Shown one piece after another: positions 1,294 to 63,574 of a stretch of DNA of 64,000 bases. Under the pieces are notes generated by a model. That model had not been told where the DNA came from. It saw only the letters and a program-made list of their open reading frames with translations, and did no database searches. This stretch comes from a virus. The number at the start of each line of letters is the position of its first letter. The stretch's first letter is position 1. The position numbers were made by a program, and so were the translations under genes. The stretch lies in IMG/VR virus record IMGVR_UViG_3300010396_000006, positions 1-64,000 of that record, one strand, 5' to 3'.

Positions 1294-1371
1294 AAATCAT
1301 ACTGATTATTCTTGACGTCGCAAGCCGATTCGGTTACGGTTCGCAACCCCACCACGGTCAGTAACACGCGG
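1294..1371 (+). promoter_or_regulatory. sigma70-like promoter with operator palindrome and CAGTAAC leader hairpin
   Basis: AAATC-ATACT-GATTA 1294-1308; TTGACG 1312-1317, 17 bp, TACGGT 1335-1340; CAGTAAC 1359-1365. Confidence 0.65.
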
Positions 1372-1388
1372 AATATGGGATTCTATCA

Positions 1389-1955
1389 ATGAAAAAGAAG
1401 TCGACGCGGAAGCCATCCGCCAAATCAACAACGGTCGCTGATGAATGTGCGGCCTATCGTGCAAACGGCAATTTCAGCGAATACGTCTGTGAGATCGAAC
1501 CGTTTCTGAAACAAGAACCAGAAATGCGAATTCGACTGCTGAAGAGCCTGAACAGCCCAATGGGCAAAGTGATCGAGGTCCATCACATCTACGGCCGGGT
1601 CAACAAGTGCGAAGAAAGCAACTGGCATACGGCATTGGTTCAGGTCTTCAAGGCGAGTCATCACGATTGCGGACACGATTTCAATCCACTGATTCTCGAA
1701 GTCGTCTCGCTCAAAGCAAAACTCGATCGACAGTGGCAACATGAACAACGCCAGTTGATCGGTTTGGAACCCCCGAACACGCCGCCGAATCGATTGCATT
1801 GGAACCTGCCGGTTCTCGATCTGTTGTGCAAAAAGAAACACAGCAATCCAACGCTCGCCGGTCGAATTGAAGGCATCTTGATTCCGCGCCTATCGGAGTT
1901 CCCGGTGTTCCAGCAGATGGCCAAAGAGATCCTGGCCAAGATCAATGGCGTCTGA
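1389..1955 (+). CDS. hypothetical protein, possible HNH/His-Me finger nuclease
   Basis: 188-aa ORF; EVHHIYGR...HHDCGH His cluster. Confidence 0.5.
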   Translation: MKKKSTRKPSAKSTTVADECAAYRANGNFSEYVCEIEPFLKQEPEMRIRLLKSLNSPMGKVIEVHHIYGRVNKCEESNWHTALVQVFKASHHDCGHDFNPLILEVVSLKAKLDRQWQHEQRQLIGLEPPNTPPNRLHWNLPVLDLLCKKKHSNPTLAGRIEGILIPRLSEFPVFQQMAKEILAKINGV

Positions 1956-1970
1956 TTCAAGGAATGGCCG

Positions 1971-2261
1971 ATGAGTTCTCTGTCTGAACGATATATGCCG
2001 ACCGAGAATGGCGCTCGGCCATTTATGGAGTGGCTTAAAAATGGCGAGTATCGTCATCCGTCTTCATTCGACGCAGACGATCAGGTCCAAGAACTGCGAA
2101 AGATCGTCGACATTGAAGACCAGACGGCTCGAAAGATCGCGGCCAGCATGTTCGACAAGGCCAGATACATGCAGCGCCGTCTCGATGAACGCAAAAAAGA
2201 AATCGTTGCCTTGTACGAATTGGTCAAACAGTACGAAGAAGAACAAAGGGCAAACCCATGA
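1971..2261 (+). CDS. hypothetical protein
   Basis: AAGGA RBS; ATGA overlap with next gene. Confidence 0.7.
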   Translation: MSSLSERYMPTENGARPFMEWLKNGEYRHPSSFDADDQVQELRKIVDIEDQTARKIAASMFDKARYMQRRLDERKKEIVALYELVKQYEEEQRANP

Positions 2262-3019
2262 GTGACGAGCATTTCCTTGAAGACGGTTCCTCAGTGATCA
2301 AGCTGGGTGAGTTCGATGGCGGATTCGTGGTTCAGGAAGTATTCGACAACGGAGATGATGAACCGTCGTTTGGCCAGCCGATGATTGTCAAGAATCTGTT
2401 CGCAGAACCGCCGACAACGAAAAAGCACGCTGAGATTCAGAAGTTGGTCGATCAGGTCCACGAACTGAAAGTTGAACGATCATTGCTCACTGATGAGATT
2501 CGCCAGCAAAAGCAACAACTGGAAACGGCGAAACGAGAAACCGAAGCCGCTAAAAAGCTATCCGAAGTCGATGCCGCCATGAAACTGGTCTATGACTGCA
2601 TCCAAGGCAAGTTCACCCACATTGCCAGTCCGCACGATTATCATCCCAATATCGAACTCGCAAAAGATTTCACGAAGCAGATGCCTTTGTTGGAATTGCG
2701 AGCAGACTTGCAGGACAAAACTGTCCAATGGAAGTTAAGCCGATCATACATGGATCGAGACTATCGACAGAATGTTGTTTTGTGTCAGTCGATTGGCGCG
2801 GCTCGCGACGTCGTGAGGCCGAAAGTGATTGCCAAACTGAACTCCGCCAGAGATCACAGCGACATGAAAGAAGCGATCGCATTGGCAAAGCGACTCGGGA
2901 TTGAAGTCGACGCCAAGTATGAATCGAAATCCGAAGAGTTCCGAATGACCGAACTGGAAAAGCAACGTCAAGAACTCGCCGCAAAGCTACAGGCGACCGA
3001 AGCATCCTTGGCAAAGTAA
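2258..3019 (+). CDS. coiled-coil hypothetical protein
   Basis: 253 aa, heptad-rich; translationally coupled to upstream gene. Confidence 0.75.
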   Translation: MSDEHFLEDGSSVIKLGEFDGGFVVQEVFDNGDDEPSFGQPMIVKNLFAEPPTTKKHAEIQKLVDQVHELKVERSLLTDEIRQQKQQLETAKRETEAAKKLSEVDAAMKLVYDCIQGKFTHIASPHDYHPNIELAKDFTKQMPLLELRADLQDKTVQWKLSRSYMDRDYRQNVVLCQSIGAARDVVRPKVIAKLNSARDHSDMKEAIALAKRLGIEVDAKYESKSEEFRMTELEKQRQELAAKLQATEASLAK

Positions 3020-3022
3020 ATC

Positions 3023-3334
3023 ATGTCTGCACTTCCGCTACGCGCCGCTGAAGAACATCGCATCTATGATTTGCTTCACGAACAAATCGGATTCGATGAA
3101 TTCGGAACGTGGAAGGGCAGCTTCCTTCAATGCACGGAAACCGGATGCGAAGAATATCGAATTCAAGGCAAACTCGGATTCGGCGGCAAGCTACGAAACT
3201 GTCACGGCCGAATCTACATCGATTGCTATCCAGAAGACATCAATCAAGAGCGACAGGTGTTGATCGATCGAGTGAACGCAACTTTCGTTCAATGGTCAAA
3301 AGAAGGTCTGTTGCCGAAGTTCAGGGGAGCGTGA
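3023..3334 (+). CDS. phage hypothetical protein
   Basis: 103-aa ORF in tight operon; EYRIQGKLGFGGK motif. Confidence 0.7.
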   Translation: MSALPLRAAEEHRIYDLLHEQIGFDEFGTWKGSFLQCTETGCEEYRIQGKLGFGGKLRNCHGRIYIDCYPEDINQERQVLIDRVNATFVQWSKEGLLPKFRGA

Positions 3335-3612
3335 TGTCGAATCCGAAAGCCATGCATGCCCAATATCGAGATCCAAAGACTGGCATTCTCGTCATCTACA
3401 CGTCAGCCGGCGTTCGAATGAATGCTCGCAATCCAAAGCGAGTCTGCGATCGTTGCGGAAAGCCGTTTGAAAAACATCATGATGGGTGGGATTCAACAGG
3501 TCTTGTTGTCACTGAGGAAGAAGTGTCTTGCATGCGTGGTGACGACATCGTGAAGTTCTATCATCCAGAATGTTTCGATCAGTTACAAAGCGAAGGTCAA
3601 TCCAATGGCTGA
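3334..3612 (+). CDS. small Zn-finger-like protein
   Basis: TGATG overlap start; CDRC...HPEC. Confidence 0.6.
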   Translation: MSNPKAMHAQYRDPKTGILVIYTSAGVRMNARNPKRVCDRCGKPFEKHHDGWDSTGLVVTEEEVSCMRGDDIVKFYHPECFDQLQSEGQSNG

Positions 3613-4693
3613 AACGACAATCGAATGGACGAATACCATTGATCAACTCGGCAATAGCCATCCGGGTTTCACGTTCAATCCGTGGTCGGGCTGTTCCAAG
3701 GTCAATGCGGGCTGTCAATTCTGCTATGCGGAGGTCAATCGATCAGTTCGAATTCGTGGTGTCACCTGGGGACCGAAAGGAAAACGAATCGTATCCAGTC
3801 CAGATTACTGGCAGAAACCATTGTCATGGAACAAGAAGGCATATCGTCTCGGCGTCAGACTGAAAGTATTTTGCGCCAGCTTGTCAGATGTGTTCGAAGA
3901 AATCGGAACAGACTTCGTGTTCGATCACAAAGGCAATCGGATTTTTCGACAGTTCGACGAGAATGCCACACTGTCGGGAAATCCATACATTGACGCGGCT
4001 GACCATTACCGAGTCGGGTTGCCAGAACTACGAAAGGATCTCTTCAACCTGATCGATATGACGCCGTATCTCGACTGGTTGATCCTGACAAAACGTCCGC
4101 AGAACATTCCGGAGATGTGGCCAAACACTCCTTATCCCGGACTTCAAGGACAATTCAGTTCGGAACCGCATCCGGTGAATAAGTATCGACCGAATGTCTG
4201 GCTAGGAACATCTATCAGCGATCAAGAAACAGCCAACGCGATGTTGCCAGAACTGTTGAAGTGTCGCGACCTGTCACCAGTGCTGTTCACGAGCTATGAG
4301 CCGGCATTGGGTCCCGTCGACTTCACGATGATCAGAGATCCGAACCGATTCCCTGGCTGTGCATACTTCGACGTCTTGCGTGGTCGAATGATCCATGAGG
4401 ACGACGGAAATCGCTGGACGAAAGAACCACATCTCGATCAAGTCATTGTCGGCGGTGAATCAGGTCCCAACGCTCGGCCGTACGAACTTGATTGGCCAAG
4501 GCAAACAATCAAGCAGTGTGCTGAATCCGGAATTGCTTGTTTCCATAAACAACTTGGATCATTCGCTTGGCGAAAATCAGATGGCGGTGGAATGAATGTT
4601 TACTTTCCAACCCGCGACAAGAAAGGCGGTGATCCTGCCGAGTGGCCGGAAGATCTGCGAGTCAGGCAATTTCCTGTTGTGTCAGCCGGATAG
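3605..4693 (+). CDS. DUF5131 (phage Gp37/Gp68) family protein, radical-SAM-like
   Basis: TTIEWT, FNPWSGCSKVNAGCQFCYAE (CX6CX2C), LILTKRP, SYEPALG, VIVGGESG, FHKQLG. Confidence 0.92.
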   Translation: MAETTIEWTNTIDQLGNSHPGFTFNPWSGCSKVNAGCQFCYAEVNRSVRIRGVTWGPKGKRIVSSPDYWQKPLSWNKKAYRLGVRLKVFCASLSDVFEEIGTDFVFDHKGNRIFRQFDENATLSGNPYIDAADHYRVGLPELRKDLFNLIDMTPYLDWLILTKRPQNIPEMWPNTPYPGLQGQFSSEPHPVNKYRPNVWLGTSISDQETANAMLPELLKCRDLSPVLFTSYEPALGPVDFTMIRDPNRFPGCAYFDVLRGRMIHEDDGNRWTKEPHLDQVIVGGESGPNARPYELDWPRQTIKQCAESGIACFHKQLGSFAWRKSDGGGMNVYFPTRDKKGGDPAEWPEDLRVRQFPVVSAG

Positions 4694-4699
4694 AGAACC

Positions 4700-4957
4700 A
4701 TGAGCGACAACGATCAATTCGAGGAAGAACTGGAACGATCAGGTCTGTTCCGTTGTTGGTGCGGAATGATTGGCCAATATGACGAGATGTTCGATATGGA
4801 AATCTTCGAACAGGATTGTGGCGGAAGCGGAGTTCTGAACTGCGAGTGCGGCGGCGATATTTGCACCTGTCATAATCATGGCGAGGTTCAGTGTCCCGGC
4901 TGTCCTGATTGCGAAGAGTTCGACGAAGACATGGACGATTATGACAGATCCTATTAA
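4700..4957 (+). CDS. Cys-rich acidic small protein
   Basis: CGGSGVLNCECGGDICTCHNHGEVQCPGCPDC. Confidence 0.7.
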   Translation: MSDNDQFEEELERSGLFRCWCGMIGQYDEMFDMEIFEQDCGGSGVLNCECGGDICTCHNHGEVQCPGCPDCEEFDEDMDDYDRSY

Positions 4958-5309
4958 AGAACTGGTGTCGAAGATCATCTGTTGCATCCGTGCGGCTCGG
5001 CTTGATCTCTCGGATGAGAAAGCGACTCAACGCGATCTCGCCGAGATGTTCACTCAGGAACGGATTTTCTTCGCCCGTGAAGTTCGCCTATCCAGAGCAG
5101 ACATTATCGACTTCATGATTCAAGGCATCGGCATCGAAGTGAAGTTGCAAGGGGCCGTCAAAACGGCGGTCCATCGTCAATTGGTTCGGTACGCAAAACA
5201 CGACAACATCAAGTGTCTGATTCTGGTCTCGAATCTCAGCATGGGATTGCCACAACAGATCGAAGGGAAAGACGTCTATTTCGTCAGCGCGGCAGAGGGC
5301 TGGTTGTGA
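4941..5309 (+). CDS. small PD-(D/E)XK nuclease-like protein
   Basis: IIDF...GIGIEVK...QLVRYA; coupled to the SNF2 helicase. Confidence 0.65.
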   Translation: MTDPIKELVSKIICCIRAARLDLSDEKATQRDLAEMFTQERIFFAREVRLSRADIIDFMIQGIGIEVKLQGAVKTAVHRQLVRYAKHDNIKCLILVSNLSMGLPQQIEGKDVYFVSAAEGWL

Positions 5310-6988
5310 GAACGTACGGCAAGATTCAACTTACTCCCGATGGAACGAAATGGGTGATCACCAAAGCGGAGCCGCACGTCTCGATCCGATTGAAAACCTT
5401 GTTCCCAAGTATTCCGAAAGGAAATGTCCCGCCATATTGGTTGCCTCACAGTCTGCCTGTTGATGCCGATCTCGATTGGTTCATGATCCGATATCCGCTG
5501 GAGATGTCAGAACAGGATCGAGCGGCACTAACCATCGGCCGCGAAAAGTACCTCGCACGCCAAGCCGAGATGGAACAGATCCTGATGCCGGATTACGTCC
5601 CCGCGAAGTCGGCAAAATTAAGGGAAGGCCAACAACTGAGGCCGTATCAATGGCAAGCAATCGAGATCCTGAAACGTCGCGGAAGCCTGTTGATCAGCGA
5701 CGAAATGGGACTCGGGAAAACTTACACGGCGGCAGGATTCATGGTCAGTCGGGCTGATTCGCTTCCCGCCGCCGTAGTCTGCGATGCTCACATGCAGCAA
5801 CAATGGAAAGAGAAGATCGAATCGTTCACGTACCTGAAAGTATGTCTGATCAAAAAGGCATCTGCCTATAGTTTGCCGGCGGCGGACGTCTACGTATTCC
5901 GAATCAGTCAGGTTGCCGGATGGTCAGAGATCTTCGATACCGGGTTTTTCCAATCGGTGACATACGATGAGCCTCAATCATTGAGGACGGGAACATCAAC
6001 CAGCAAAGGAACCGCCTGCAAGATTCTGTCCAAGAACACAAAGTATCGTTGCGGGCTGAGTGCTACGCCGGTTTTCAACTATGGCGATGAAATGTGGCGG
6101 ATTCTCCAATTCATCGACGATGCCGTTTTGGGATCATGGGATGATTTTGCGAGGGAATGGTGCTACCCAATGGGCAACGGAAAATTCCGCGTTGATAATC
6201 CAAAGGCCCTTGGGTCATACCTTCGCGAACAGCATGCGATGTTGAGGCGCACAAAAGCGGATATTGGTCAGCAATTGCCGAAAGTGTCCCGAATCGTCGA
6301 ACACGTTGACTATGACGAAAAGGCCGTTCAAGCCGTCGAGGATCTGGCTTGCATGCTGGCAGTCAAAGCGACTACAGCCAGTTTCGTTGAACGAGGGAAT
6401 GCCGTCAGGGAATTGGACGTCATGGTTAGGCAGGCAACGGGGATTTCCAAAGCGAAGACTGTTGCGACATTCAGCAGGATGATCGTCGAAGCCGGTGAAC
6501 CGATCATCCTATGGGGTTGGCATCGCGGGGTCTATGAAATCTGGAATCAAGAACTAGCCGATCTCAATCCCGCCATGTACACGGGAAGTGAATCAGCATC
6601 GCAGAAGCAAAAAGCGAAAGACAAATTTCTGAACGGTGAAACCGACGTATTGATCATGTCGCTGCGAAGCGGGGCCGGGGTTGATGGACTGCAAAAGCGA
6701 TGTTGTACTGGCATCTTCGGTGAATTGGATTGGTCCCCTGGGATTCATGCCCAATGCATCGGACGTCTCGATCGAGAAGGCCAAGAGAACCCCGTGACGG
6801 CATTCTTCCTTGTGGTCGATGATGGAAGCGATCCGCCGATCATGGATGTGTTGGGAATCAAAGCGTCAGAAGCATCCTCAATCATCGATCCGCATTTGGG
6901 CGTGGAGATGAAAGAGAACGACACCAGTCGATTGCAAAAGCTGGTTGAGCGATATTTAGATCGAAAGAAGTCAAAGTCGGTAGCGTGA
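5306..6988 (+). CDS. SNF2-family helicase/ATPase
   Basis: LRPYQ, DEMGLGKT (Walker A), YDEPQ, LSATP, GAGVDGLQ, QCIGRLDREGQ; GTG start overlaps upstream TGA. Confidence 0.9.
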   Translation: MRTYGKIQLTPDGTKWVITKAEPHVSIRLKTLFPSIPKGNVPPYWLPHSLPVDADLDWFMIRYPLEMSEQDRAALTIGREKYLARQAEMEQILMPDYVPAKSAKLREGQQLRPYQWQAIEILKRRGSLLISDEMGLGKTYTAAGFMVSRADSLPAAVVCDAHMQQQWKEKIESFTYLKVCLIKKASAYSLPAADVYVFRISQVAGWSEIFDTGFFQSVTYDEPQSLRTGTSTSKGTACKILSKNTKYRCGLSATPVFNYGDEMWRILQFIDDAVLGSWDDFAREWCYPMGNGKFRVDNPKALGSYLREQHAMLRRTKADIGQQLPKVSRIVEHVDYDEKAVQAVEDLACMLAVKATTASFVERGNAVRELDVMVRQATGISKAKTVATFSRMIVEAGEPIILWGWHRGVYEIWNQELADLNPAMYTGSESASQKQKAKDKFLNGETDVLIMSLRSGAGVDGLQKRCCTGIFGELDWSPGIHAQCIGRLDREGQENPVTAFFLVVDDGSDPPIMDVLGIKASEASSIIDPHLGVEMKENDTSRLQKLVERYLDRKKSKSVA

Positions 6989-6993
6989 AAGGG

Positions 6994-7298
6994 AAAACCA
7001 TTTGATCAATCGGACATGATGAACGGTAGACCGTTTACTGACCGAAGACCGCAACGCCGTGGGATCGAAAGTGAAATCGGTAAAAAAGTATTCGGAAGGG
7101 GCGATTGGGACGGAGCGATATTCCGATGCCGGTACAGGTATGGTGTGCGTTGCGGTGAATGTCACACGTCAGCGACGAAGCCCAGCCGGCAGCGACCGGA
7201 GCCGCACACAACGGCTTTCATGGATAGCGGTGATGCATGCAATTGCGAATCCATGACGCAGGGCTGTCCTAGCTTTGTCCGATTGATCAAGTGGTTTT
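6994..7298 (+). ncRNA. candidate ~305-nt multibranch structured RNA, family unassigned
   Basis: 23-bp terminal stem 6994-7016/7276-7298 (one G-U) enclosing at least eight nested helices, e.g. 7048-7057/7147-7156 and 7218-7225/7249-7256. Confidence 0.65.
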
Positions 7299-7326
7299 AG
7301 AAGCGAACTTTTAACAAGGTGCAATT

Positions 7327-8064
7327 ATGCTGGAACGAGTGACATTGACGGGCGCAGACAACACGGTCGAACCGAGCGAACTGCGAAAACTGAGCGAGGA
7401 TTTCCCGTTTGTCGAGTGGGGGATTCTGATCGGGACTCGCTTAAAGGCTCATCGAATGCCAGATGTTGATTGGATTCATCAACTGGTTGAAGAACGATTC
7501 CAAACGAACAACACAATGAATCTGTCGCTTCATATCTGCGGCCAACGATTGCGATCCATCGCGAATGGCCGACCTGATTTGAATGTGACAGTAGGCCATC
7601 AATTTATGGCGTTCTCTCGTGTGCAACTGAATTGGCATGCTGAACGATATGCGGCCGACGTCACTGAAAGCATGGCGGAAAACATTCTCACATCGTTCTG
7701 CCAAATGGGTGTGAGTGGATGGGAACCGGAATTGATCTTTCAGCTTGATGGGGTCAACGAAGATCTCTGCAAAGCCGTGATGCGTCGTTTTCGTTGTAGT
7801 GGATTATTTGATCGATCTCACGGTGCAGGCATTCTTCCCGGTGAATGGCCAAGATCACGGACCGATATGGCATGCGGTTGGGCCGGTGGCTTAGGTCCTG
7901 ACAATGTGGTCGAAGAGTTCCAGAAGATCCGTAAGCAGGCGTTCGGACCGTTCTGGATCGACATGGAAACCAAACTCTACAACGAAGACCGGACATTCAG
8001 CTTGGAAAAGTGCCGCAGTGTTCTGACTCAGATGAAACCATTCGTTGGATCGGACGCGGATTGA
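7327..8064 (+). CDS. phosphoribosylanthranilate isomerase-like TIM-barrel protein
   Basis: VTLTGAD, VEWGIL, LFDRSHGAG, GWAGGLGPDNV, FWIDMET. Confidence 0.75.
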   Translation: MLERVTLTGADNTVEPSELRKLSEDFPFVEWGILIGTRLKAHRMPDVDWIHQLVEERFQTNNTMNLSLHICGQRLRSIANGRPDLNVTVGHQFMAFSRVQLNWHAERYAADVTESMAENILTSFCQMGVSGWEPELIFQLDGVNEDLCKAVMRRFRCSGLFDRSHGAGILPGEWPRSRTDMACGWAGGLGPDNVVEEFQKIRKQAFGPFWIDMETKLYNEDRTFSLEKCRSVLTQMKPFVGSDAD

Positions 8065-8390
8065 TGGCCACCAGAACAATCACAATCGAAGTCGATGAAC
8101 TCGACGAAGCGACAATCCTGAATACGATTGCCAAGTATCAGGCCAAGTCACATGCGGCGGGCGGAGAAAATTGGTTGCCGGAAGGCGAATCTGACATTCG
8201 CGGCGCAACGCTGGCGGAGATCTGCCGAGCGTATCAGGAATACCACGACACTTGGAAACCGAGATTGCCGTTGAATCACGCAGTCCGGATCAAGGAAGCG
8301 ATTGAACGGAGAATCGAATCCATTCCCGGTGACGTCAATAAAGCTGACATGCGTGAAGTTCTGGAAAAGTTCATTGAGTACATGACATAA
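8064..8390 (+). CDS. hypothetical protein
   Basis: TGATG coupling. Confidence 0.65.
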   Translation: MATRTITIEVDELDEATILNTIAKYQAKSHAAGGENWLPEGESDIRGATLAEICRAYQEYHDTWKPRLPLNHAVRIKEAIERRIESIPGDVNKADMREVLEKFIEYMT

Positions 8391-8401
8391 AGGGGAAGTC
8401 T

Positions 8402-8740: not shown

Positions 8741-8754
8741 GGCTGGTGAATTAA

Positions 8755-11863: not shown

Positions 11864-12196
11864 ATGACAGACAAACCAAAAGAACCATCCGCATTTCGTC
11901 CAACATGGCCGGAAGGAATTGAAGCCAACAAGAACTATCGCATGGCTTGCGATGACAAAGGCCGTGACGGTGGATCATGGATGGAAGTCTTCATTGATGA
12001 TCAGGGGGATGCCTATCTATCGGCTCAAGATTGGGAAGACATCCTTGAGCCGGGAAGCGTTCCGATGCCAATCCCGCACATTCGGATCAGAACGTCAGTC
12101 GGCGGTGGAAGGAATCGGCGAACAAGGCAGGCCCTGTTATGGCTGGCGGACGCCATTCGTCGAGACAACGAAGAAAACGGAGTCACGCCAGAGTGA
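11864..12196 (+). CDS. phage hypothetical protein
   Basis: 110-aa ORF in operon. Confidence 0.7.
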   Translation: MTDKPKEPSAFRPTWPEGIEANKNYRMACDDKGRDGGSWMEVFIDDQGDAYLSAQDWEDILEPGSVPMPIPHIRIRTSVGGGRNRRTRQALLWLADAIRRDNEENGVTPE

Positions 12197-13601: not shown

Positions 13602-13683
13602 AAATCAGTAAGATTTCTATTGACGTCTGAAAAGAACGTCGATATTCTGATCTCAGTCACGCCGCTGACAGTAACCAGCCGCG
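13602..13683 (+). promoter_or_regulatory. sigma70-like promoter with operator palindrome and CAGTAAC leader hairpin
   Basis: AAATC-AGTAA-GATTT 13602-13616; TTGACG 13620-13625, 17 bp, TATTCT 13643-13648; hairpin 13660-13683 with loop ACAGTAAC. Confidence 0.8.
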
Positions 13684-13713
13684 AACGACATTCTTAAACG
13701 AAAGGCCAAGTCA

Positions 13714-28180: not shown

Positions 28181-28266
28181 GCGGATGGAAGTCGAGTGGC
28201 AGACGGTGTAGCCTCCGGTTTACCGGACTAGGCGACAAGGTGGGGGTTCGAGTCCTCTCAACCGCT
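28181..28266 (+). ncRNA. tRNA-like RNA (pseudo-tRNA) lacking a canonical anticodon loop
   Basis: Acceptor GCGGATG/CAACCGC, D-arm GTC-GAGTGGCA-GAC, T-arm GGGGG-TTCGAGT-CCTCT; anticodon region is TCCGG-TTTA-CCGGA. Confidence 0.65.
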
Positions 28267-28305
28267 TTGGTTAGATTCAATAAATCCCTTTCAAGGATGA
28301 GCAAA

Positions 28306-28671
28306 ATGTCAACTGGAACGACAACGAACGGTGGCACGACTCCGACGACTCCTCATCCAACGCCGGGCGTCACTCCGCCAAAGCTGAGTATTCCGCAGGT
28401 CTTCGCATCTGCCGAGGCAAGATTATCAGCGTGGGCAACCGTCTGGACGACTCATCTTCAGTCTCTGACATTGCCAATGCTCCAAAAACTTCAAGCGGCA
28501 TTGAATGCGGGAACCGCGTTGCCGTTCGGTTTGGAGATCTTCCGAGCGGACGTCGTGGCCTATATTGGCGATGCAATTGCCTACGTGACTGATGCCGCAA
28601 CATTGCTTCAACTGGTCGAGCAATTGACCGCTATCAAGGCTGCGAACGTCGACAAGCCTACTGCCAGTTGA
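28306..28671 (+). CDS. hypothetical protein
   Basis: AAGGA RBS; Thr/Pro-rich N-terminus. Confidence 0.65.
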   Translation: MSTGTTTNGGTTPTTPHPTPGVTPPKLSIPQVFASAEARLSAWATVWTTHLQSLTLPMLQKLQAALNAGTALPFGLEIFRADVVAYIGDAIAYVTDAATLLQLVEQLTAIKAANVDKPTAS

Positions 28672-42902: not shown

Positions 42903-42973
42903 AAATCTAGTTGATTTTCCGAAATGATGTCGATAGAGTCAGATCACGCCGCTGATTCAGTAACATCGCGGTG
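42903..42973 (+). promoter_or_regulatory. sigma70-like promoter with operator palindrome and CAGTAAC leader hairpin
   Basis: AAATC-TAGTT-GATTT 42903-42917; TTGATT 42911-42916, 17 bp, TAGAGT 42934-42939; hairpin 42945-42973 with loop TCAGTAAC. Confidence 0.75.
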
Positions 42974-43005
42974 AACTTCTGAATCATTCTTGAAAGGAAA
43001 TCGCC

Positions 43006-43929: not shown

Positions 43930-43969
43930 AATAGCGGGCTGAGAACTCTCCTCTTCAGCCCGCTATTTT
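43930..43969 (+). terminator. intrinsic terminator-like hairpin
   Basis: AATAGCGGGCTGA/TCAGCCCGCTATT followed by TT. Confidence 0.65.
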
Positions 43970-46116: not shown

Positions 46117-46146
46117 TTGACGCAACCCCAAATACCTGAATAGAGT
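46117..46146 (+). promoter_or_regulatory. sigma70-like promoter for terminase operon
   Basis: TTGACG, 18 bp, TAGAGT. Confidence 0.55.
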
Positions 46147-46158
46147 CTGCACATGTCC

Positions 46159-46250
46159 ACCTGAAAAGGTCCGACACAGAACTCCTGAAAAGGACTTCGC
46201 CAAAGAACTCCCGAAACGGACTTCAACAGCAAGGGAACTCCAGAAATGGA
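46159..46250 (+). repeat. four GAAA-loop mini-hairpin repeats in the terS leader
   Basis: ACCT-GAAA-AGGT, GAAC-TCCT-GAAA-AGGA-CTTC, GAAC-TCCC-GAAA-CGGA-CTTC, GAAC-TCCA-GAAA-TGGA. Confidence 0.8.
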
Positions 46251-51427: not shown

Positions 51428-51456
51428 TTGCAAAAATCAGTAAGATTTCACAAGAT
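51428..51456 (+). promoter_or_regulatory. operator palindrome in promoter-like site
   Basis: TTGCAA 51428-51433; AAATC-AGTAA-GATTT 51434-51448, identical to 13602-13616. Confidence 0.6.
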
Positions 51457-51512
51457 GCCAATTAACCGATTGTTGGGCAATCGGACTTGATAGACGCGGC
51501 TTGTCTGTGTCG

Positions 51513-51559
51513 GCCTGTCGTAATACTGCCCAACGGTATTGCGACAGGCTTTTTCTTTT
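51513..51559 (+). terminator. intrinsic terminator/attenuator in leader
   Basis: 16-bp stem GCCTGTCGTAATACTG/CGGTATTGCGACAGGC followed by TTTTCTTTT. Confidence 0.75.
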
Positions 51560-51576
51560 GATCAAAGGGCAATCAG

Positions 51577-55888: not shown

Positions 55889-55925
55889 TCTGCCGTCGCA
55901 AAGCCCTGTCTGATATCGATTTCCA

Positions 55926-55968
55926 AGGCTGAGTTGACTATTTTGTTGACTCAGCCTCTTTCGTTTTC
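55926..55968 (+). terminator. intrinsic terminator-like hairpin
   Basis: AGGCTGAGTTGAC/GTTGACTCAGCCT followed by CTTTCGTTTT. Confidence 0.65.
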
Positions 55969-55976
55969 AGGCAAGG

Positions 55977-58900: not shown

Positions 58901-61900
58901 CCCGCCCGATGGGGAAGGATGGATTCAGGTCTATCCGAAAGTGTCGAAGCGTAAATCTCTCGGCATGTCCGAAGGGATCGGGTCAGATGGAGGATTCGCC
59001 GTCGCTTCCGAAGACGAACGATGCCCAAAATGTCCCAAATGCGGATCACGGGAAACGCATCATGCTAGAACTGATGGCACAGGGAACGCGATCTGTAGCA
59101 ATTGCAAATCAATTTTCACTGATCCTGATTATGGAAAACAGAAATCAGTTTCGTTTCCATCGTCAGAAGTCGTACCGGGCAACAACGGCCATCAATTCCC
59201 CAAGAACACATTGATTCTTGGTGGGGATCAAGTTCTGATGCCACCAGAGTCAGAACTCAAATCCAAATGGATCACGATTCATCCTGGGGGAGACAAAGAC
59301 GCAACTGGCATTCACATCCTGATTGACGAAGACGGCGAAATCAAAGGCGGTCCGGCCGAACTGCGAGACAAAGGCATCCGCAAGATGTCTGACTTCGGGA
59401 AAGAAGACCTGAAGCCAGTCAAACCAAAAGACAATCACGAGAAGGCCGCATTCAACGCCAGCAAGCGAGCCGATCAAGCATCCGCCGATGCTAAAGAGTC
59501 GGGCGACCTGTTCGACCATATTGCGGCTAAAGAAGCCCACATGCACGCCGCAGCCCATCACAGCAAAGGCGGCAATGAAGATCAGGCGTCATATCACAGA
59601 AAGGCGGCTCAACAGCACGGTTCAGCCGCGACACCAACGGCTCCAGCGTCAAACGGACAACTGAGCGACGAAAAGATCATCCAGGCAATGAAGCCATCCG
59701 TTGATCGCAGCGGCATGGTTGAGGCCGAAGAACTGCGATCGATGCCAGAATTCGCTGGGATGTCGAAAGAGAAATTCGACCAACGAATGATGGACATGGC
59801 CAAAGTTGATCAGCCGGGCGGACCGAAGGTCTCGTTGCACCGATACGACCGAGCCGAATCGCTGTCAGCGGACGATAAAAAAAAGATGATCTTCGATCCG
59901 GATGCGCCGGCACGATTCGAAGATGGACAAAAGGGAGCGTATTACAATGCGGTCTCCATCCGCAAATCGTTGTCAGAAATGAAATCGCATTGGATTACGA
60001 TCCATCCTCATGGCGATGAGCATGATGGAACGCACGTTTTGATCGATGGAGAAGGGAATATCGAAGGCGGTCCCGAAGGACTGGCGAAACGTGGGATTCA
60101 CAAGCTGTCCGACTTTGGGAAAGGCGGCGAATCAGCAGACAAACCACACGAAACCCGTGAAGAGTGGGCGAAGAGACATTCCGATGCCGCCGATCATTGG
60201 TTACATGGAGTGAACAATGATCTGGCAGCCGTGCATCAAGAACACGGCGACTTGATCACAAAAAAGCACATGACGGACAGCTTTCGAAATCACGTCAATA
60301 CCGGAAGAATGACCCCAGATCAATATGAGGATCATGTTTCTAAGGGAACCATTCTCGGTGGACACGATTACGAACGCGCTCAGCATGTCGAGCAGAAAAT
60401 CCATGAGATCAAAAATCGTCCGCTAACTGTCCCGGAGCCAGATGGAAAGCATCCATACGTTGAACCGCCCGCCAAGCCGCCGGAAGAAAAGCCAGAAATC
60501 CGACCAGACATCGACGCTCCGATCAGCAAGAAAGACACGCCTCGCGAAACGGCGGCAAAGCAAAAGAAGATTGACGATGATTATGCGTTTGCTCGCAATT
60601 CATCCATCCCGAATGTCGGCGAAGATGTTGCCGATTCGGCTCGTCACAAGCGAAATGCTTGGCGTGGATTGGAAGATGCGGAATCCAATGGAACCGCCGA
60701 ATCAATGGTGACTCGTGATAATCTGCTCAAGGCCGAACCGCACAACTTGATGTCTCATGCCGGAAAACATCCACTGACATCACTGGCCATGCATTACGCG
60801 ATGAGATCGTTCCCAGCGAAACCATCCAGCAATCGCGAAGTGGCCAATGCCAGCGATCGGAAGGACTATCACGAAGCGTATCAGAGCATCAAAGCAAAAG
60901 CCGAGCATCTGGCGGAAACAGAATCCGATCCACGGGCAGCCGCAGAGAAGCTACGAGAACACGTCGGCAATCATCTGAAGGGATTGAGGGAGCGGAAGAT
61001 TCCCGGACCCACAATTCCCGTGGCCGATCGATACAACAAGACCGCGAACAATTTGGTTGGAATGCACAAGGCGTTACGATTCGCCAGCTACGGCCGACCA
61101 TCGGCAAATAGCGTTCATGGCAAGATGGAAGAGTTCTCAAAGGCGATGGCCGGGAAATATGGACTTCCAGAAAAGTATGAACCTGAAGCGGCCAAGCAAT
61201 TCGCCTCCCATATTGAGACTCACGCCAAGGACATTATTGACGGGAAATCGCTTCCACAGTCATTTGGCATTAAGGGAGAAAAGAAAAACGAATTTAATCC
61301 TGCCGATCGATACGTCAAGCATGCTGAACGAGCCGGGGGCAAGGATGTCAGTCACCAAACCGCAACGGGAGTCTCGGCGGCAAACTCCGTCGTAAACGAC
61401 TTCGGGATGCGTGGCGTCCAATGGGGTAACAGCGTCACTGACGACGAACGCCATCATCACGCTGCCAAGGTTGTCGAAGCGTTGACCGATCTGGCCGATA
61501 CTCTCGGCATCAAGCCGGCTGATCTCAGTCTCGGCGGAAAGCTGGCCTTGGCCATTGGCGCTCGCGGTAAGGGAACTGCCTCGGCTCATTACGAACCGCA
61601 TACCCAGGCCATCAACCTGACGCGGGCCAGCGGAGTCGGTACTCTCGCCCATGAGTGGGGACACGCCTTTGATCATTCACTGGAGAATTTCGCGAATCGT
61701 GCGACGAGTGCGGTCTATCACAGCGAAAACTATCGATCCAGTCCGGCAATGCAAAAGCTGACATCCGATTTCCGATCATCGGGATTCACGAATCGAATTC
61801 ATAGTGAGGTTCGTGATATGGTGCGTCAGGGCCTGATGTCGAAAAAGAAAGCGGAATACTGGCTATCAACCAGAGAACAATTCGCCCGTTGCTTCGAGAG

Positions 61901-62684
61901 TTATGTTCAACACAAGCTGGCTGACACGAATCAGAAGAATACGTATCTTGCTGGTCTGATTTCGGACGGCGGCTTGTGGCCGACCAAGGAAGAAACGGCC
62001 AAGATGGCCCCCGCTTTTGACAGTCTGTTCGCTGAATTCCGCAAACAAAAGTATGGAAGCGAAAATCGGATTGATCAGTCTCGATCGGAAATCAAATCGG
62101 CAGTCTTGGATTTGGTTGGTCAATCCGTCTTTAAATCGTCGCGATGGATCACAATCCATCCGCACGGTGAAGACGCGAAAGGCGTCCATATCCAGATCAA
62201 TGACGACGGCGAGATCCTGTCAGGTCCCGCACATCTTCGCGACAAGGGAATTACCCACATGGGGGATTTCGCGAAGCGGGGAAGCAATCAAGCGGCCGTG
62301 GACGAACTGAAGCCTCACGCTCTCGAATTCCTGACCGAGCAACACAAGCTGAGAGAACATCACAAAGCCGAAGCTCGCAAACTGACTGGCAAGAATGCCG
62401 GCAATCTGGCGATGTCGGAAAACAGCTATCACGATCATTCGGATGCTCATCGATTCGAGACCGCCGCTCGCACATTCGCCCGAGAGAATCCCGATGCTGG
62501 ATTGAATCCAGATGCTCACGACACGCCGGCCAAAGTCTGGGAGCTAATCCGGGAGGGCAAGAAGAAAGCCCCGCTGATCAATTCGAAGGAAGTCCACGAG
62601 ACAGCCAGAGCCTGGGTGAAGAATCACCGAACGAAGCGTGCGCCGGTAGGCACATACGAACACGATTCCGATTGGAACTTCTGA
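55977..62684 (+). CDS. portal-fused polyvalent protein (HK97-like portal + 2H phosphoesterase + PPase-like + Zn ribbon + LPD/zincin)
   Basis: Portal: LLSKPNP, LRLTGGAF, SPKDMEY, VNEARALRGMPPL; 2H: PHVT/PHCT; PPase-like: PSEAQITAGNYKK, IENPKGSVRSG, YGYIKGT, DGDHIDVF, DEHKCMLGF; zincin: RGVQWGN, LAHEWGHAFD, EQFARCFESYV. Confidence 0.88.
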   Translation: MSQIMSRRRNRNRRVENYRKNSDRVVEHPNVPAPELNDSQIKSMASQMRAALAGSFGGAQVTNHREEALHYEGNSYVNIAAICAQMMMVTITAYVDGSNQLRQQSVRKSLRGLVGSRWKSQYGVDEASSKQLESDHYLMRLLSKPNPHEPGSMFRYRQTLQLRLTGGAFLWNVPNINGRTCERYVIPTTCLTPVYPDNTLPYGGYRVQPNCMRWIPLVDDGFVIGTPALMRVLGMIIDAREIQKVGYPHPIWLDDFQSPMSAGAQWVDAERSINIARAMGISRGMNPSGFLELSKEYMGIEQDALNITQRKLDRQYGGVNNTGKVIAVAPDTKFTGYDRSPKDMEYHEGYLDHREANQSLHGVHPIITGGQPPGAYAAYYAAMRAFDNNTLTPICDMLAESDTFHIAPQFGEGITIEIEPKPINDEDELNSRLQVDGQLGIIKVNEARALRGMPPLDGAQGEKLCGPTSKDKVGQDQDSDNPSKPKKPKQSGDAPSTPEVQEAEQADVPKAPENPIVGKSESKSLQAAMEGMKEADEDYIQEIVAKALDSRLKAMQPAEKPKRKYSSTQFDLPAGLAEKVQEMAALINPADLASDGIEENPHVTCLYGLTEESPNDVKKAVKGISAGPIVLESLSLFPAGDKLAQHGGEQFDVLKISIGGKFIHEIHNAIAESCEYETDYADYSPHCTIAYLKPGKGRKYVTMNNPVDGMTFIPDKLIFSSKNRTVSAIRLSVLKSVEEQPSEAQITAGNYKKDHITIQGLRISIENPKGSVRSGRDDDGNEWSTKMRNDYGYIKGTKSDSDGDHIDVFVGPNPSSELVFVIDQVNPQSGQHDEHKCMLGFDSKDQAKSAYLENYSKGWKGFGGITPMHMDQFKEWLDSGDSSKGIARKSLTAAFSESEMKGHNPISDIQAIGKRLAESDCGMPGYGQIFIKENGSGQAWYVGGDGDERGFDKTVIQELKKVTGIDEVRYESESFPPDGEGWIQVYPKVSKRKSLGMSEGIGSDGGFAVASEDERCPKCPKCGSRETHHARTDGTGNAICSNCKSIFTDPDYGKQKSVSFPSSEVVPGNNGHQFPKNTLILGGDQVLMPPESELKSKWITIHPGGDKDATGIHILIDEDGEIKGGPAELRDKGIRKMSDFGKEDLKPVKPKDNHEKAAFNASKRADQASADAKESGDLFDHIAAKEAHMHAAAHHSKGGNEDQASYHRKAAQQHGSAATPTAPASNGQLSDEKIIQAMKPSVDRSGMVEAEELRSMPEFAGMSKEKFDQRMMDMAKVDQPGGPKVSLHRYDRAESLSADDKKKMIFDPDAPARFEDGQKGAYYNAVSIRKSLSEMKSHWITIHPHGDEHDGTHVLIDGEGNIEGGPEGLAKRGIHKLSDFGKGGESADKPHETREEWAKRHSDAADHWLHGVNNDLAAVHQEHGDLITKKHMTDSFRNHVNTGRMTPDQYEDHVSKGTILGGHDYERAQHVEQKIHEIKNRPLTVPEPDGKHPYVEPPAKPPEEKPEIRPDIDAPISKKDTPRETAAKQKKIDDDYAFARNSSIPNVGEDVADSARHKRNAWRGLEDAESNGTAESMVTRDNLLKAEPHNLMSHAGKHPLTSLAMHYAMRSFPAKPSSNREVANASDRKDYHEAYQSIKAKAEHLAETESDPRAAAEKLREHVGNHLKGLRERKIPGPTIPVADRYNKTANNLVGMHKALRFASYGRPSANSVHGKMEEFSKAMAGKYGLPEKYEPEAAKQFASHIETHAKDIIDGKSLPQSFGIKGEKKNEFNPADRYVKHAERAGGKDVSHQTATGVSAANSVVNDFGMRGVQWGNSVTDDERHHHAAKVVEALTDLADTLGIKPADLSLGGKLALAIGARGKGTASAHYEPHTQAINLTRASGVGTLAHEWGHAFDHSLENFANRATSAVYHSENYRSSPAMQKLTSDFRSSGFTNRIHSEVRDMVRQGLMSKKKAEYWLSTREQFARCFESYVQHKLADTNQKNTYLAGLISDGGLWPTKEETAKMAPAFDSLFAEFRKQKYGSENRIDQSRSEIKSAVLDLVGQSVFKSSRWITIHPHGEDAKGVHIQINDDGEILSGPAHLRDKGITHMGDFAKRGSNQAAVDELKPHALEFLTEQHKLREHHKAEARKLTGKNAGNLAMSENSYHDHSDAHRFETAARTFARENPDAGLNPDAHDTPAKVWELIREGKKKAPLINSKEVHETARAWVKNHRTKRAPVGTYEHDSDWNF

Positions 62685-62708
62685 TTCATCAATAGCCAGA
62701 CAGTTGCG

Positions 62709-62723
62709 GAATCTCTAAGATTT
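62709..62723 (+). promoter_or_regulatory. operator-like palindrome (one mismatch)
   Basis: GAATC-TCTAA-GATTT in intergenic gap after TTGCG. Confidence 0.45.
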
Positions 62724-62791
62724 CTGCGATTGATCTGGTCCCGTTGATGGAGCATGAAGATGATTCAACGCATGCAAGAAAGGTTTTCAAA

Positions 62792-63478
62792 ATGGAGATG
62801 AATCGACGCTCACTACTCGGAATGATCCTTGGTTCGGCTTGCTCGTTATTATTGCCAACTAAGTCGATATCCGCTGGTTTGAAGTCACTGGAAATTCCGG
62901 TCGATGCGAACGGCATCCCAATTCACTGTTATGTCTGGAACGTGCCAAACATCAACGGCCGGACGTGCCAGAGACATATTATTCCTGTCGACGATCTTGC
63001 ATTGATTAAAGCGAATACGGAGTTGCCTTATAGTGGGTATCGTATCAGCCAATCCCCCAATCGATGGGCATCCATGCCGCTTTATGGGGAAAGCCCGGTT
63101 GAAAATCCATCATTGCGAGTCGCTGGATATATCATTGATGACAGGCAAGTAGAACGAATCTCTCCATCGAATCCATTTCGGCTGAAGTTGCTTTACCATC
63201 ATGACGTCGAGGTATGCTTTATTGACGGGTCTGCCGATGACTCGATCGCCTTCTATCTCGCATGGCAAAGATGCCGCCAAACTCCATCGCAAGAATCGGA
63301 GTTGCGAAAACATTTAGCGAATGGCGACGGCATTGCGATTGGCTTTCGCAAATCAAATTTGATGTCTTTTGTGGCAATCAACCAAGCGGTTATGGACTGC
63401 GGTGTCCCATGCTTTGAGACAGACAAAATGACAGAAAGCGAAAATCGATGCACGCGGACGTATGCTCACGTCAGCTAG
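62792..63478 (+). CDS. Tat-like signal peptide fused to a duplicated portal segment
   Basis: MNRRSLLGMILGSACSLLLP; WNVPNINGRTC...LPY.GYR...RV.G.IID.R matches the portal. Confidence 0.8.
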   Translation: MEMNRRSLLGMILGSACSLLLPTKSISAGLKSLEIPVDANGIPIHCYVWNVPNINGRTCQRHIIPVDDLALIKANTELPYSGYRISQSPNRWASMPLYGESPVENPSLRVAGYIIDDRQVERISPSNPFRLKLLYHHDVEVCFIDGSADDSIAFYLAWQRCRQTPSQESELRKHLANGDGIAIGFRKSNLMSFVAINQAVMDCGVPCFETDKMTESENRCTRTYAHVS

Positions 63479-63487
63479 GGAATCGCA

Positions 63488-63574
63488 AAATCTTACTGAT
63501 TTCAGTTGACATCCTTGCCGATATCTGGATAGCATTCTGAACATGTGAGCGGGTTGAACCAGTAACTCCCCGCG
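63488..63574 (+). promoter_or_regulatory. sigma70-like promoter with operator palindrome and CAGTAAC leader hairpin
   Basis: AAATC-TTACT-GATTT 63488-63502; TTGACA 63506-63511, 18 bp, TAGCAT; GCGGG...CAGTAAC(63560-63566)...CCCGC. Confidence 0.75.

What the first reader, a model, noticed from the sequence alone, without database searches (positions are those of the whole stretch)
1352..63574. Five promoter-proximal hairpins share an invariant CAGUAAC loop with different stems
Seen: CAGTAAC at 1359, 13669, 20075, 42958 and 63560, each 18-24 nt after a predicted -10 hexamer and each in a hairpin loop. The stems differ in sequence but keep pairing (GCTG/CAGC; TCGTG/CACGA; CCGC.GAT/ATC.GCGG; GCGGG/CCCGC; the 1352 stem is weakest). 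All five promoters also carry the operator palindrome. Inference: a constant loop on variable stems points to an RNA-level recognition element at the transcript 5' end, either a nut/boxB-like antitermination site or the target of an antisense RNA.
Basis: partly seen in the sequence, partly recalled or inferred. Interest (0 to 1): 0.8.

Follow-up and report, generated by a model that had tools for sequence, protein, structure and literature searches.

The report
Shared-loop RNA hairpin tags on phage operons
An uncultivated 105-kb phage, probably of Planctomycetes, starts eight of its operons with a small RNA hairpin whose stem differs each time but whose loop is always CAGUAAC, which marks these transcripts for one common partner, either the matching GUUACUG loop found in one leader or an unidentified protein.

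Summary
The window is the first 64 kb of a 105,647-bp phage genome. That genome has eight such sites, five in the window and three beyond it. Each has the AAATC-N5-GATTT operator, a sigma70-like promoter, and a hairpin starting 7-15 nt after the -10 box with CAGUAAC in its loop. The loop is identical in all eight copies. The stems differ and co-vary, and they use G-U pairs that work only on the + strand, so this is an RNA-level element.

Two readings remain open:
- **RNA partner (0.40).** The leader of the third operon displays the exact complement, GUUACUG, in an 8-nt loop (chance about 0.016). Two other RNAs in this genome also carry complementary loop pairs.
- **nut/boxB-like antitermination site (0.30).** U-tailed terminators sit just before genes with no new promoter, and a weak boxA-like AUUCUU follows the hairpin. 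No binding protein was found.

There was no Rfam match. No relative (65% protein identity or less) carries the element, so cross-species covariation could not be tested. The scan noted the same hairpins in overlapping windows of this genome, not on other DNA. I rate it a new variant of a known kind, interest about 0.6.

The parts
1294..1308 (.). Operator palindrome AAATC-N5-GATTa of promoter P1
1312..1340 (+). P1 promoter, TTGACG-17-TACGGT
   Evidence: 8/12, below the scan tool's threshold
1348..1379 (+). P1 leader hairpin with CAGUAAC at 1359-1365; the weakest copy
   Evidence: -8.4 kcal/mol, z -0.6
13602..13616 (.). Operator AAATCAGTAAGATTT of P2
13620..13648 (+). P2 promoter, TTGACG-17-TATTCT
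   Evidence: flagged by the tool, 9/12
13656..13689 (+). P2 leader hairpin with 8-nt loop ACAGUAAC (motif 13669-13675)
   Evidence: -12.7 kcal/mol, z -3.9
13690..13698 (+). boxA-like AUUCUUAAA after the P2 hairpin (suggestive only)
20027..20055 (+). P3 promoter, TTGACA-17-TTAGAA, with operator 20032-20046 in the spacer
   Evidence: not flagged by the scan
20062..20092 (+). P3 leader hairpin with 11-nt loop holding CAGUAAC (20075-20081)
20088..20230 (+). Structured domain of the P3 leader, closed by a 30-bp stem (20088-20118 with 20200-20230)
   Evidence: whole leader z = -6.0
20119..20136 (+). Hairpin A with 8-nt loop A-GUUACUG (20125-20131), the exact complement of the eight leader loops
20145..20183 (+). 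Hairpin B with loop UCUUAAUU (20160-20167), followed by AUUUUCUC; a possible attenuator
   Evidence: not flagged by the terminator scan
42903..42917 (.). Operator of P4, overlapping the -35 box
42911..42939 (+). P4 promoter, TTGATT-17-TAGAGT
42947..42973 (+). P4 leader hairpin with loop UCAGUAAC (motif 42958-42964)
   Evidence: -10.8 kcal/mol, z -2.5
42986..42995 (+). boxA-like AUUCUUGAAA (suggestive only)
   Evidence: compare host rrn AUCUUUGAAAAC
43930..43969 (+). Terminator-like hairpin plus U-tract after the first two genes of the P4 operon; no promoter before the next gene (43997)
63488..63502 (.). Operator of P5
63506..63535 (+). P5 promoter, TTGACA-18-TAGCAT
   Evidence: 10/12
63549..63573 (+). 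P5 leader hairpin, GCGGG/CCCGC around CAGUAAC (63560-63566); large or bulged loop. Its 3' half CAGUAACUCCC is complementary to hairpin A over 11 nt
   Evidence: 11-nt match read from the sequences

Best explanation
The hairpins are RNA tags at the 5' end of the phage's operator-controlled, host-RNAP (sigma70-type) operons. These operons carry replication, recombination and small non-structural genes. There are eight in the genome and five in the window. The stem only has to hold the loop open. The invariant seven loop bases CAGUAAC are the address.

The partner I consider most likely is RNA. The leader of operon P3 carries the exact complement, GUUACUG, in an 8-nt hairpin loop at the tip of a 30-bp stem.
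- In a short form of that leader, the two sequences pair with each other in cis.
- In the full-length leader, or a fragment released by RNase III, GUUACUG is exposed. It can then form a 7-bp loop-loop (kissing) helix with the 5' hairpins of the other seven operon transcripts.

One leader-derived RNA would then set the fate (stability or elongation) of all tagged transcripts. The untagged terminase operon, and apparently the head-tail genes, for which no tagged promoter was found, would escape.

Shown: the elements, their covariation, the complementarity and the predicted accessibility. Inferred: the transcription start sites, that pairing occurs in trans, and what pairing does.
For: 1. Eight loops are identical (56 of 56 bases) on unrelated, co-varying stems.
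2. G-U pairs in the stems, in hairpin A and in the long stem work only on the + strand RNA.
3. GTTACTG occurs only twice on the + strand. One copy sits in a -12.5 kcal/mol hairpin with an 8-nt loop, 50 nt after the P3 tag. Expected number by chance: 0.28 non-coding occurrences times 0.06 probability of a small-loop hairpin, about 0.016.
4. The P3 leader is highly structured (z = -6.0). GUUACUG is 84% unpaired in the full leader, but pairs with its own CAGUAAC (p = 0.9) in the short form. The target loops are 82-100% unpaired.
5. The same design recurs in this genome. The 51.4-kb leader has a 5' hairpin loop UUGGG and a terminator loop CCCAA, with 8 complementary nt. A minus-strand small RNA near 79.1 kb has GGUGACAGC and GCUGUCACC.
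6. The P5 tag extends the complementarity to hairpin A to 11 nt (sequences).
7. Searches found no RNA-binding protein candidate.
Against: - A single 7-nt match is a single observation and was found after the fact.
- The nearest-neighbour duplex energy is only -6.7 kcal/mol.
- The complement may serve only as a cis switch within P3. The other two loop pairs in the genome are both intramolecular.
- The tag does not overlap any ribosome-binding site or terminator, so the result of pairing is unclear.
- Internal U-tailed terminators and a boxA-like motif fit antitermination better.
- No relative carries the element, so loop and anti-loop covariation could not be tested.
- No transcript data could be obtained.
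Confidence: 0.4

Rival explanations
1. nut/boxB-like site. The hairpin loop, possibly together with the AUUCUU element downstream, recruits a phage RNA-binding protein or binds host RNAP/Nus factors directly. RNAP starting at these promoters then becomes termination-resistant and reads through the internal terminators of the long one-directional operons. GUUACUG in the P3 leader would be only a local cis switch that masks the P3 tag.
For: - U-tailed terminators lie directly before genes with no intervening promoter: 43930-43969, after 2 genes of the P4 operon; 64010-64031, after the first gene of the P5 operon; and 55926-55957, before the portal gene.
- ATTCT occurs within 45 nt after the hairpin in 5 of 8 leaders, against 0.5 expected. 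The ATTCTT motif has information content 5.7 against 4.98 +/- 0.28 in shuffles, with 0 of 60 shuffles as high.
- The motif resembles the rrn boxA of a planctomycete, GAUCUUUGAAAAC.
- The order hairpin-then-boxA is the order in rrn leaders (boxB, boxA, boxC; PMC10250234).
- The loop shares UAAC with the CUAACC loop of phi21 boxB, which N recognises (PMC12550061).
- The layout of tag, RNase III-type stem and then gene recalls the lambda N leader (from my own knowledge).
Against: - No N-like or other RNA-binding protein was found. The one N-terminal arginine-rich ORF (12139) probably starts 30 residues later. The P5 first gene looks like an HTH DNA binder.
- The boxA-like motif is weak: at widths 7 and 8, 1 and 3 of 60 shuffles reach the observed value, and two leaders lack it.
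- The 8-nt loop is larger than known boxB loops.
- This reading explains the exact complement in the P3 leader only by an added assumption.
- Internal terminators are common in phages in any case.
Confidence: 0.3
2. 5'-terminal stabiliser or self-mark. The hairpin protects the triphosphate end from 5'-end-dependent decay. A host or phage protein (an RNase, a protective factor or a translation factor) reads the loop to tell phage early mRNAs from host mRNAs.
For: In 5 of 8 sites the helix starts at the 7th-9th nt after the -10 box, which is at the predicted +1 or +2. The others start at the 11th-15th nt. The hairpin is a separate module that does not touch the Shine-Dalgarno sequence or the AUG. 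It is established that 5'-terminal stem-loops stabilise bacterial mRNAs (the ompA type; from my own knowledge).
Against: Stabilisation needs no particular loop, so the 56/56 invariance is left unexplained unless a reader protein is added. None was found. The anti-loop is also left unexplained.
Confidence: 0.12
3. DNA-level element. This could be a cruciform or single-strand hairpin used as a promoter-proximal pause or loading site, a phage-RNAP hairpin promoter of the N4 type, or a priming site.
For: It has a fixed position next to the promoter and operator. The most common operator variant, AAATCAGTAAGATTT, shares CAGTAA with the loop.
Against: G-U pairs become A-C mismatches on the other strand. 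All copies are on the coding strand. The stems vary, so no double-stranded DNA site is conserved beyond 7 bp. An N4-type promoter hairpin forms on the template strand and has a 3-nt loop (from my own knowledge).
Confidence: 0.05
4. A small riboswitch of the PreQ1-I type. The Thermoanaerobacter preQ1-I aptamer has GCAGUAAC in its loop.
For: The 7-mer occurs in preQ1-I papers. As I recall that aptamer, the 7-mer lies in its loop; I did not check this in the papers. A-rich stretches precede some Shine-Dalgarno sequences.
Against: No Rfam match even at E <= 10 on all leaders. By my comparison with the recalled aptamer, the loop is 2 nt shorter and lacks the U and C that contact the ligand. No leader except P3 has a downstream partner for a pseudoknot (sequences).
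Confidence: 0.02

Closest known systems
Lambdoid nut sites (boxA + boxB) read by N; closest loop is phi21 boxB (CUAACC hexaloop, PDB 1NYB)
   Same: A short hairpin with an invariant loop on a stem of free sequence lies promoter-proximal in early operons. Terminators lie downstream. The loop shares UAAC with phi21 boxB. A pyrimidine-rich boxA-like element lies nearby.
   Different: There are eight sites rather than two, and the loop is 8 nt. The hairpin comes before the boxA-like element, as in rrn leaders. The hairpin sits at the very 5' end. No N-like protein was found. There is no sequence or Rfam relation. The host is a planctomycete.
Leader-derived antisense RNAs of phage immunity: P4 CI RNA (seqB pairs with seqA and seqC), P1/P7 c4, N15 CB
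   Same: The antisense element is made from the same strand, inside the leader of an operon it controls. A target lies upstream in the same leader. Complementarity is short and presented on structured RNA (PMC4825925 for P4).
   Different: Those RNAs control one operon through 2 target sites and act by blocking a ribosome-binding site or causing termination. Here a single 7-nt loop would address eight operons, and no ribosome-binding site or terminator is covered. There is no Rfam C4 match. Processing is not known.
Kissing-loop antisense control (ColE1 RNA I/RNA II, R1 CopA/CopT, S. aureus RNAIII with target hairpins)
   Same: A 7-bp loop-loop helix forms between two hairpins with loops of 7-8 nt. 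In the RNAIII case one regulator has several targets.
   Different: Those pairs are mostly cis-encoded on opposite strands and extend into longer duplexes. Here only the P5 tag can extend, to 11 nt. No YUNR U-turn motif is evident.
rrn antitermination leader (boxB-boxA-boxC)
   Same: The order is hairpin and then a boxA-like element soon after the promoter (PMC10250234). A planctomycete rrn boxA, GAUCUUUGAAAAC, resembles the phage element (C/G)AUUCUU(A/G)AA.
   Different: The rrn boxB loop is not conserved and is dispensable (from my own knowledge). The phage boxA-like motif is weak and absent from two leaders.
HK022 put RNA
   Same: A cis RNA just after early promoters that needs no phage protein.
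   Different: put is about 70 nt with two stem-loops. This element is a single hairpin of 25-35 nt.

Membership tests
Lambdoid nut site (N-dependent antitermination) | boxB: a short hairpin with a conserved loop in the early leader | tested here: met
   Eight hairpins with an invariant loop. However, the loop is 8 nt rather than a GNRA-like penta- or hexaloop, and the fold of the loop cannot be tested here.
Lambdoid nut site (N-dependent antitermination) | boxA (the NusB/S10 site) next to boxB | tested here: inconclusive
   AUUCUU occurs in 5 of 8 leaders. The motif is significant at width 6 only. The order is reversed relative to lambda.
Lambdoid nut site (N-dependent antitermination) | A phage-encoded N-like protein with an arginine-rich motif | tested here: not met
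   No Pfam hit suggesting an RNA-binding protein or antiterminator among about 80 ORFs scanned. The arginine-rich N-terminus at 12139 is probably untranslated. Many small ORFs remain unexamined.
Lambdoid nut site (N-dependent antitermination) | Downstream terminators that are read through only by modified RNAP | not testable with these tools
   Terminator-like sites exist at 43930-43969, 51512-51550, 55926-55957 and 64010-64031. Read-through needs experiments.
P4 CI / P1 c4-type leader-derived antisense RNA | An antisense segment on the same strand within the leader, complementary to a target in that leader | tested here: met
   GUUACUG at 20125-20131 against CAGUAAC at 20075-20081.
P4 CI / P1 c4-type leader-derived antisense RNA | Sequence and structure family (Rfam C4, RF01695, and relatives) | tested here: not met
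   No Rfam match at the gathering threshold or at E <= 10.
P4 CI / P1 c4-type leader-derived antisense RNA | The target overlaps a ribosome-binding site or precedes a termination site, so that pairing shuts off the operon | tested here: not met
   The tags lie 23-57 nt (162 nt in P3) before the start codon and fold independently of the Shine-Dalgarno sequence. No terminator lies immediately downstream.
P4 CI / P1 c4-type leader-derived antisense RNA | A stable processed small RNA | not testable with these tools
PreQ1-I riboswitch (RF00522) | A match to the covariance model, with an H-type pseudoknot and an A-rich tail | tested here: not met
   No hit at E <= 10. No downstream partner in 7 of 8 leaders.
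5'-terminal mRNA stabiliser hairpin | A stem beginning within a few nt of the 5' end | tested here: inconclusive
   The helix starts at the 7th-15th nt after the -10 box, but transcription start sites are inferred, not mapped.

The most novel reading that the evidence does not exclude
One leader-derived RNA governs a whole viral transcription programme. The GUUACUG loop of the P3 leader kisses identical 5'-terminal hairpin tags on all eight early and middle operons of a 105-kb phage. This would give an RNA-only global switch, either shutting off early transcripts or providing immunity. The late operons are untagged and would escape. The other complementary loop pairs in the genome, at 51.4 kb and 79.1 kb, would then be members of the same loop-address system.
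Probability: 0.3. Interest if true: 0.8.

Novelty: new variant of a known kind. Interest (0 to 1): 0.62.

Why it matters
Phages of Planctomycetes are almost unstudied. This one shows a compact, readable regulatory code in which each tagged operon carries an operator, a promoter and a 5' RNA tag.

If the tag is read by the complementary loop, this would be the first case I know of in which one short kissing interaction addresses most operons of a large phage. It would also provide a set of portable, orthogonal RNA address pairs. If a protein reads the tag, it is a nut-like antitermination system far outside the lambdoid phages, and the binding protein remains to be discovered.

Either way the element gives a concrete handle for mapping temporal control in an uncultivated phage lineage. 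The 8-copy alignment and the loop pair support clean compensatory-mutation tests.

Tried and rejected
- **Relatives.**
  - The TerL, capsid, portal and helicase searches of IMG/VR, the JGI metagenome search (helicase) and the GTDB genome search (capsid) found only relatives with 65% protein identity or less.
  - The 76-kb relative G001 has 1 forward CAGTAAC and no shared leader motif.
  - In most relatives shown, the stretch upstream of the helicase gene shows no separate structured leader.
  - Across 1.1 Mb of relatives' DNA (both strands counted), CAGTAAC is about twice as frequent as the window's shuffle expectation. Only 3 copies sit in a stable local hairpin, and none shows the operator-promoter context.
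- **Pattern scan.** An operator-plus-loop pattern scan of IMG/VR gave only single matches, and none showed the promoter-hairpin context.
- **Loop-enrichment scan.** A generic loop-enrichment scan was too noisy to use.
- **Rfam.** No match at either threshold, so the PreQ1-I resemblance is rejected.
- **Protein searches.** Pfam and PHROGs on about 90 ORFs and two Atlas look-ups found no RNA-binding candidate.
- **97.7-kb pair.** The 10-nt "loop pair" at 97.7 kb turned out to be an ordinary helix.
- **Recent duplication as the cause of identical loops.** I rejected this. Flanks and stems have diverged, while the loop, the operator and the promoter hexamers have not.
- **Literature.** Searches found no description of this element.
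Full report
**Context**

The window is bases 1-64000 of a 105,647-bp IMG/VR virus record with a 123-bp terminal repeat. Nearly all genes lie on the + strand. The capsid is of the HK97 type. Its nearest named relative is a prophage of Schlesneria sp. at 58% identity, and other relatives come from Planctomycetaceae, so the host is probably a planctomycete. No close relative is available. TerL is at most 39% identical to any phage record, and capsid and helicase relatives are at most 66% identical.

**The observation**

CAGTAAC occurs 8 times in the window on both strands, against 1.65 expected. On the + strand of the whole genome it occurs 10 times against 1.3 expected, and 8 of the 10 lie in the 7.5% of the genome that is non-coding. 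The eight sites are 1359, 13669, 20075, 42958 and 63560 in the window, and 66792, 75317 and 101226 outside it.

Each site has three parts:
- a 15-bp palindrome, AAATC-N5-GATTT;
- a TTGAC(A/G)-17-TA(N3)T promoter;
- the motif, 18-25 nt after the -10 box.

Seven of eight sites have a promoter match of at least 8/12 in that position, against 1.8% of random positions. P3 has a good -35 box but a poor -10 box. The scan tool itself flags only P2 and P5.

**Hairpins**

With the motif held unpaired, all eight sites are enclosed by helices of -7 to -13 kcal/mol. Only 11% of random positions reach -6. Five copies have a clean stem and an 8-nt loop, (A/U)CAGUAAC. P3 has an 11-nt loop, P5 a bulged or large loop, and P1 is weak.

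On the ungapped eight-copy alignment, only the seven loop bases are invariant. The stem pairs co-vary:
- the covariation score is 0.50, against 0.16 in shuffles;
- 0 of 500 shuffles reach the observed score;
- slid registers give at most 0.17.

Some copies are clearly paralogous (P2/P4/P8 and P6/P7). P6 and P7 differ by double, pair-preserving changes. P2 and P4 share the 5' arm but pair it in different registers. This argues for selection on the fold rather than recent copying. P8 and P4 use G-U pairs, which would be A-C mismatches on the other strand. No one-mismatch loop variant exists in any intergenic hairpin.

**Position in the transcript**

The outermost pair lies at the 7th-9th nt after the -10 box in five sites and at the 11th-15th nt in three. 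The hairpin is therefore at or very near the predicted 5' end. Folding the whole leaders keeps the hairpin as a separate module. The loop is 82-100% unpaired, and there is no pairing to the Shine-Dalgarno sequence or the AUG. Transcription start sites are inferred, not measured.

**A complementary loop**

GTTACTG occurs only twice on the + strand. One copy, at 20125-20131, lies in the P3 leader 50 nt after the P3 tag.

The leader 20056-20250 folds at -86.5 kcal/mol with z = -6.0. It contains:
- the tag hairpin;
- a 30-bp stem (20088-20118 with 20200-20230) containing several G-U pairs;
- hairpin A (20119-20136), at the tip of that stem, with the 8-nt loop A-GUUACUG;
- hairpin B, with loop UCUUAAUU, followed by AUUUUCUC.

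The real start of the helicase gene is then ATG 20244.

The chance expectation for such an anti-loop is about 0.016. That is 0.28 expected non-coding occurrences times 0.06, the probability of lying in a small-loop hairpin. In a short RNA ending after hairpin B, CAGUAAC and GUUACUG pair with each other (p = 0.9). In the full leader they do not, and GUUACUG is 84% unpaired. Hairpin B is terminator-like only by my own reading; the scan tool does not flag it.

**The same design elsewhere in the genome**

At 51428-51560 a ninth operator-bearing promoter (TTGCAA, operator as the spacer, CAAGAT) is followed by a 5' hairpin with loop UUGGG. Next comes a strong terminator (51512-51550) with loop CCCAA. 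The complementarity extends to 8 nt.

On the minus strand near 79.06-79.16 kb there is a promoter, TTGATT-17-TAGGAT. It drives an RNA of about 90 nt. Its 5' loop, GGUGACAGC, matches the loop of its terminator, GCUGUCACC. Complementary loops therefore recur in this phage's RNAs. This raises the odds that the CAGUAAC/GUUACUG match is functional. However, both of these other pairs are intramolecular.

**Evidence for antitermination**

U-tailed terminator-like hairpins lie directly before genes with no promoter in between:
- 43930-43969, after two genes of the P4 operon;
- 64010-64031, after the first gene of the P5 operon;
- 55926-55957, before the portal polyprotein.

After the hairpin, 5 of 8 leaders carry ATTCT, against 0.5 expected. 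A motif search gives ATTCTT with information content 5.7 against 4.98 +/- 0.28. No shuffle of 60 reaches this at width 6, but 1 and 3 of 60 do at widths 7 and 8.

The element (C/G)AUUCUU(A/G)AA resembles the rrn boxA of Schlesneria, GAUCUUUGAAAAC. The order hairpin-then-boxA is that of rrn leaders (PMC10250234). The loop shares UAAC with the CUAACC loop of phi21 boxB, which N binds (PMC12550061).

Against this reading, no N-like or other RNA-binding protein turned up. The arginine-rich start of ORF 12139 is probably not translated. The first gene of P5 looks like a small HTH protein, which is more likely the operator binder.

**What the tagged operons encode**

- P1: SNF2 helicase, DnaC-like loader and DnaB.
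- P2: ERF, YqaJ exonuclease, RuvC and the beta clamp.
- P3: helicase, methylase and a 1731-aa protein.
- P4 to P8: mostly small unknown genes.

The terminase operon has its own untagged promoter (46117-46146) and a different leader. I found no tagged promoter immediately upstream of the head genes. The tag therefore goes with the operator regulon of non-structural operons.

**Weighing the readings**

That this is a functional + strand RNA element is close to certain (about 0.9). What reads the loop is open.

The RNA-partner reading explains the exact complement and fits the phage's other loop pairs. It also needs no unseen protein. It leaves the consequence of pairing unclear. I give it 0.40.

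The nut-like reading explains the terminators and the boxA-like motif and has strong precedent. It lacks a reader protein and treats the complement as a local extra. I give it 0.30.

The remaining readings and my weights are:
- a 5' stabiliser or self-mark read by some protein, 0.12;
- a DNA-level element, 0.05;
- a preQ1-like aptamer, 0.02 (no Rfam hit even at E <= 10).

The two main readings are not exclusive. A protein could read the tags while the P3 anti-loop masks or titrates them.

**Comparison and novelty**

The element works like boxB/nut or like the leader-derived antisense RNAs of P4, P1 and N15 (PMC4825925). It is a member of neither family. There is no Rfam match, no N protein, and no covered ribosome-binding site or terminator. 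What is unusual is the combination of eight identical loop addresses, their position at the very 5' end, and a single candidate anti-loop. Four literature searches found nothing like it. I class it as a new variant of a known kind.

**Limits**

All evidence comes from one genome. No relative carries the element. No sequencing runs could be queried.

Noticed in passing
window:46117-46250: There is an untagged promoter, TTGACG-18-TAGAGT, before the putative terS gene and TerL. It is followed by four 16-nt direct repeats, GAACTCCNGAAANGGA, spaced 24-30 nt apart. Three of them are predicted to form small hairpins, two with a GAAA tetraloop (lambda boxB-like CCUGAAAAGG) and one with a 6-nt loop. 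The fourth covers the start codon at 46246. This may be a second, separate RNA or protein-binding array for the packaging operon.
   Followed up: partly
window:51428-51560: This is a ninth operator-bearing promoter (the operator forms the spacer). Its 5' hairpin loop, UUGGG, is complementary (8 nt with flanks) to the loop, CCCAA, of a strong terminator just before the 582-aa gene. It is a candidate loop-loop controlled attenuator.
   Followed up: partly
L014:15040-15170 (genome 79.04-79.17 kb, minus strand): A minus-strand promoter, TTGATT-17-TAGGAT, drives an RNA of about 90 nt with no ORF. Its 5' loop, GGUGACAGC, is complementary to the loop, GCUGUCACC, of its own U-tailed terminator.
   Followed up: partly
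window:20160-20167: The loop of hairpin B in the P3 leader reads UCUUAAUU. This is the same sense as the boxA-like (A/C)UUCUUAA motif of the other leaders. Hairpin B is followed by AUUUUCUC and may act as an attenuator.
   Followed up: partly
window:869-1323: The only sizeable minus-strand ORF seen near a promoter (869-1300, 143 aa, no Pfam hit) diverges from P1. A minus-strand promoter-like site (1323-1296) overlaps the operator. This is a candidate autoregulated repressor.
   Followed up: partly
window:63611-64031: The first gene of the P5 operon encodes a 127-aa basic protein with an HTH-like N-terminal domain. Its homologues are mainly from Planctomycetota. A terminator at 64010-64031 follows directly. 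The protein is a candidate operator-binding regulator.
   Followed up: partly
window:27700, 48805, 62710: There are further copies of AATC-N5-GATT with no recognisable promoter or tag hairpin.
   Followed up: no
window:55977-62684: A 2235-aa protein has an N-terminal portal domain. It is followed by regions that match minor-head, DarB-like and RNA-ligase-like PHROG families.
   Followed up: no
window:28188-28266: ARAGORN calls a tRNA-Gly (anticodon ACC) inside ORF 28051-28671. It may be a false call or an overlapping gene.
   Followed up: no
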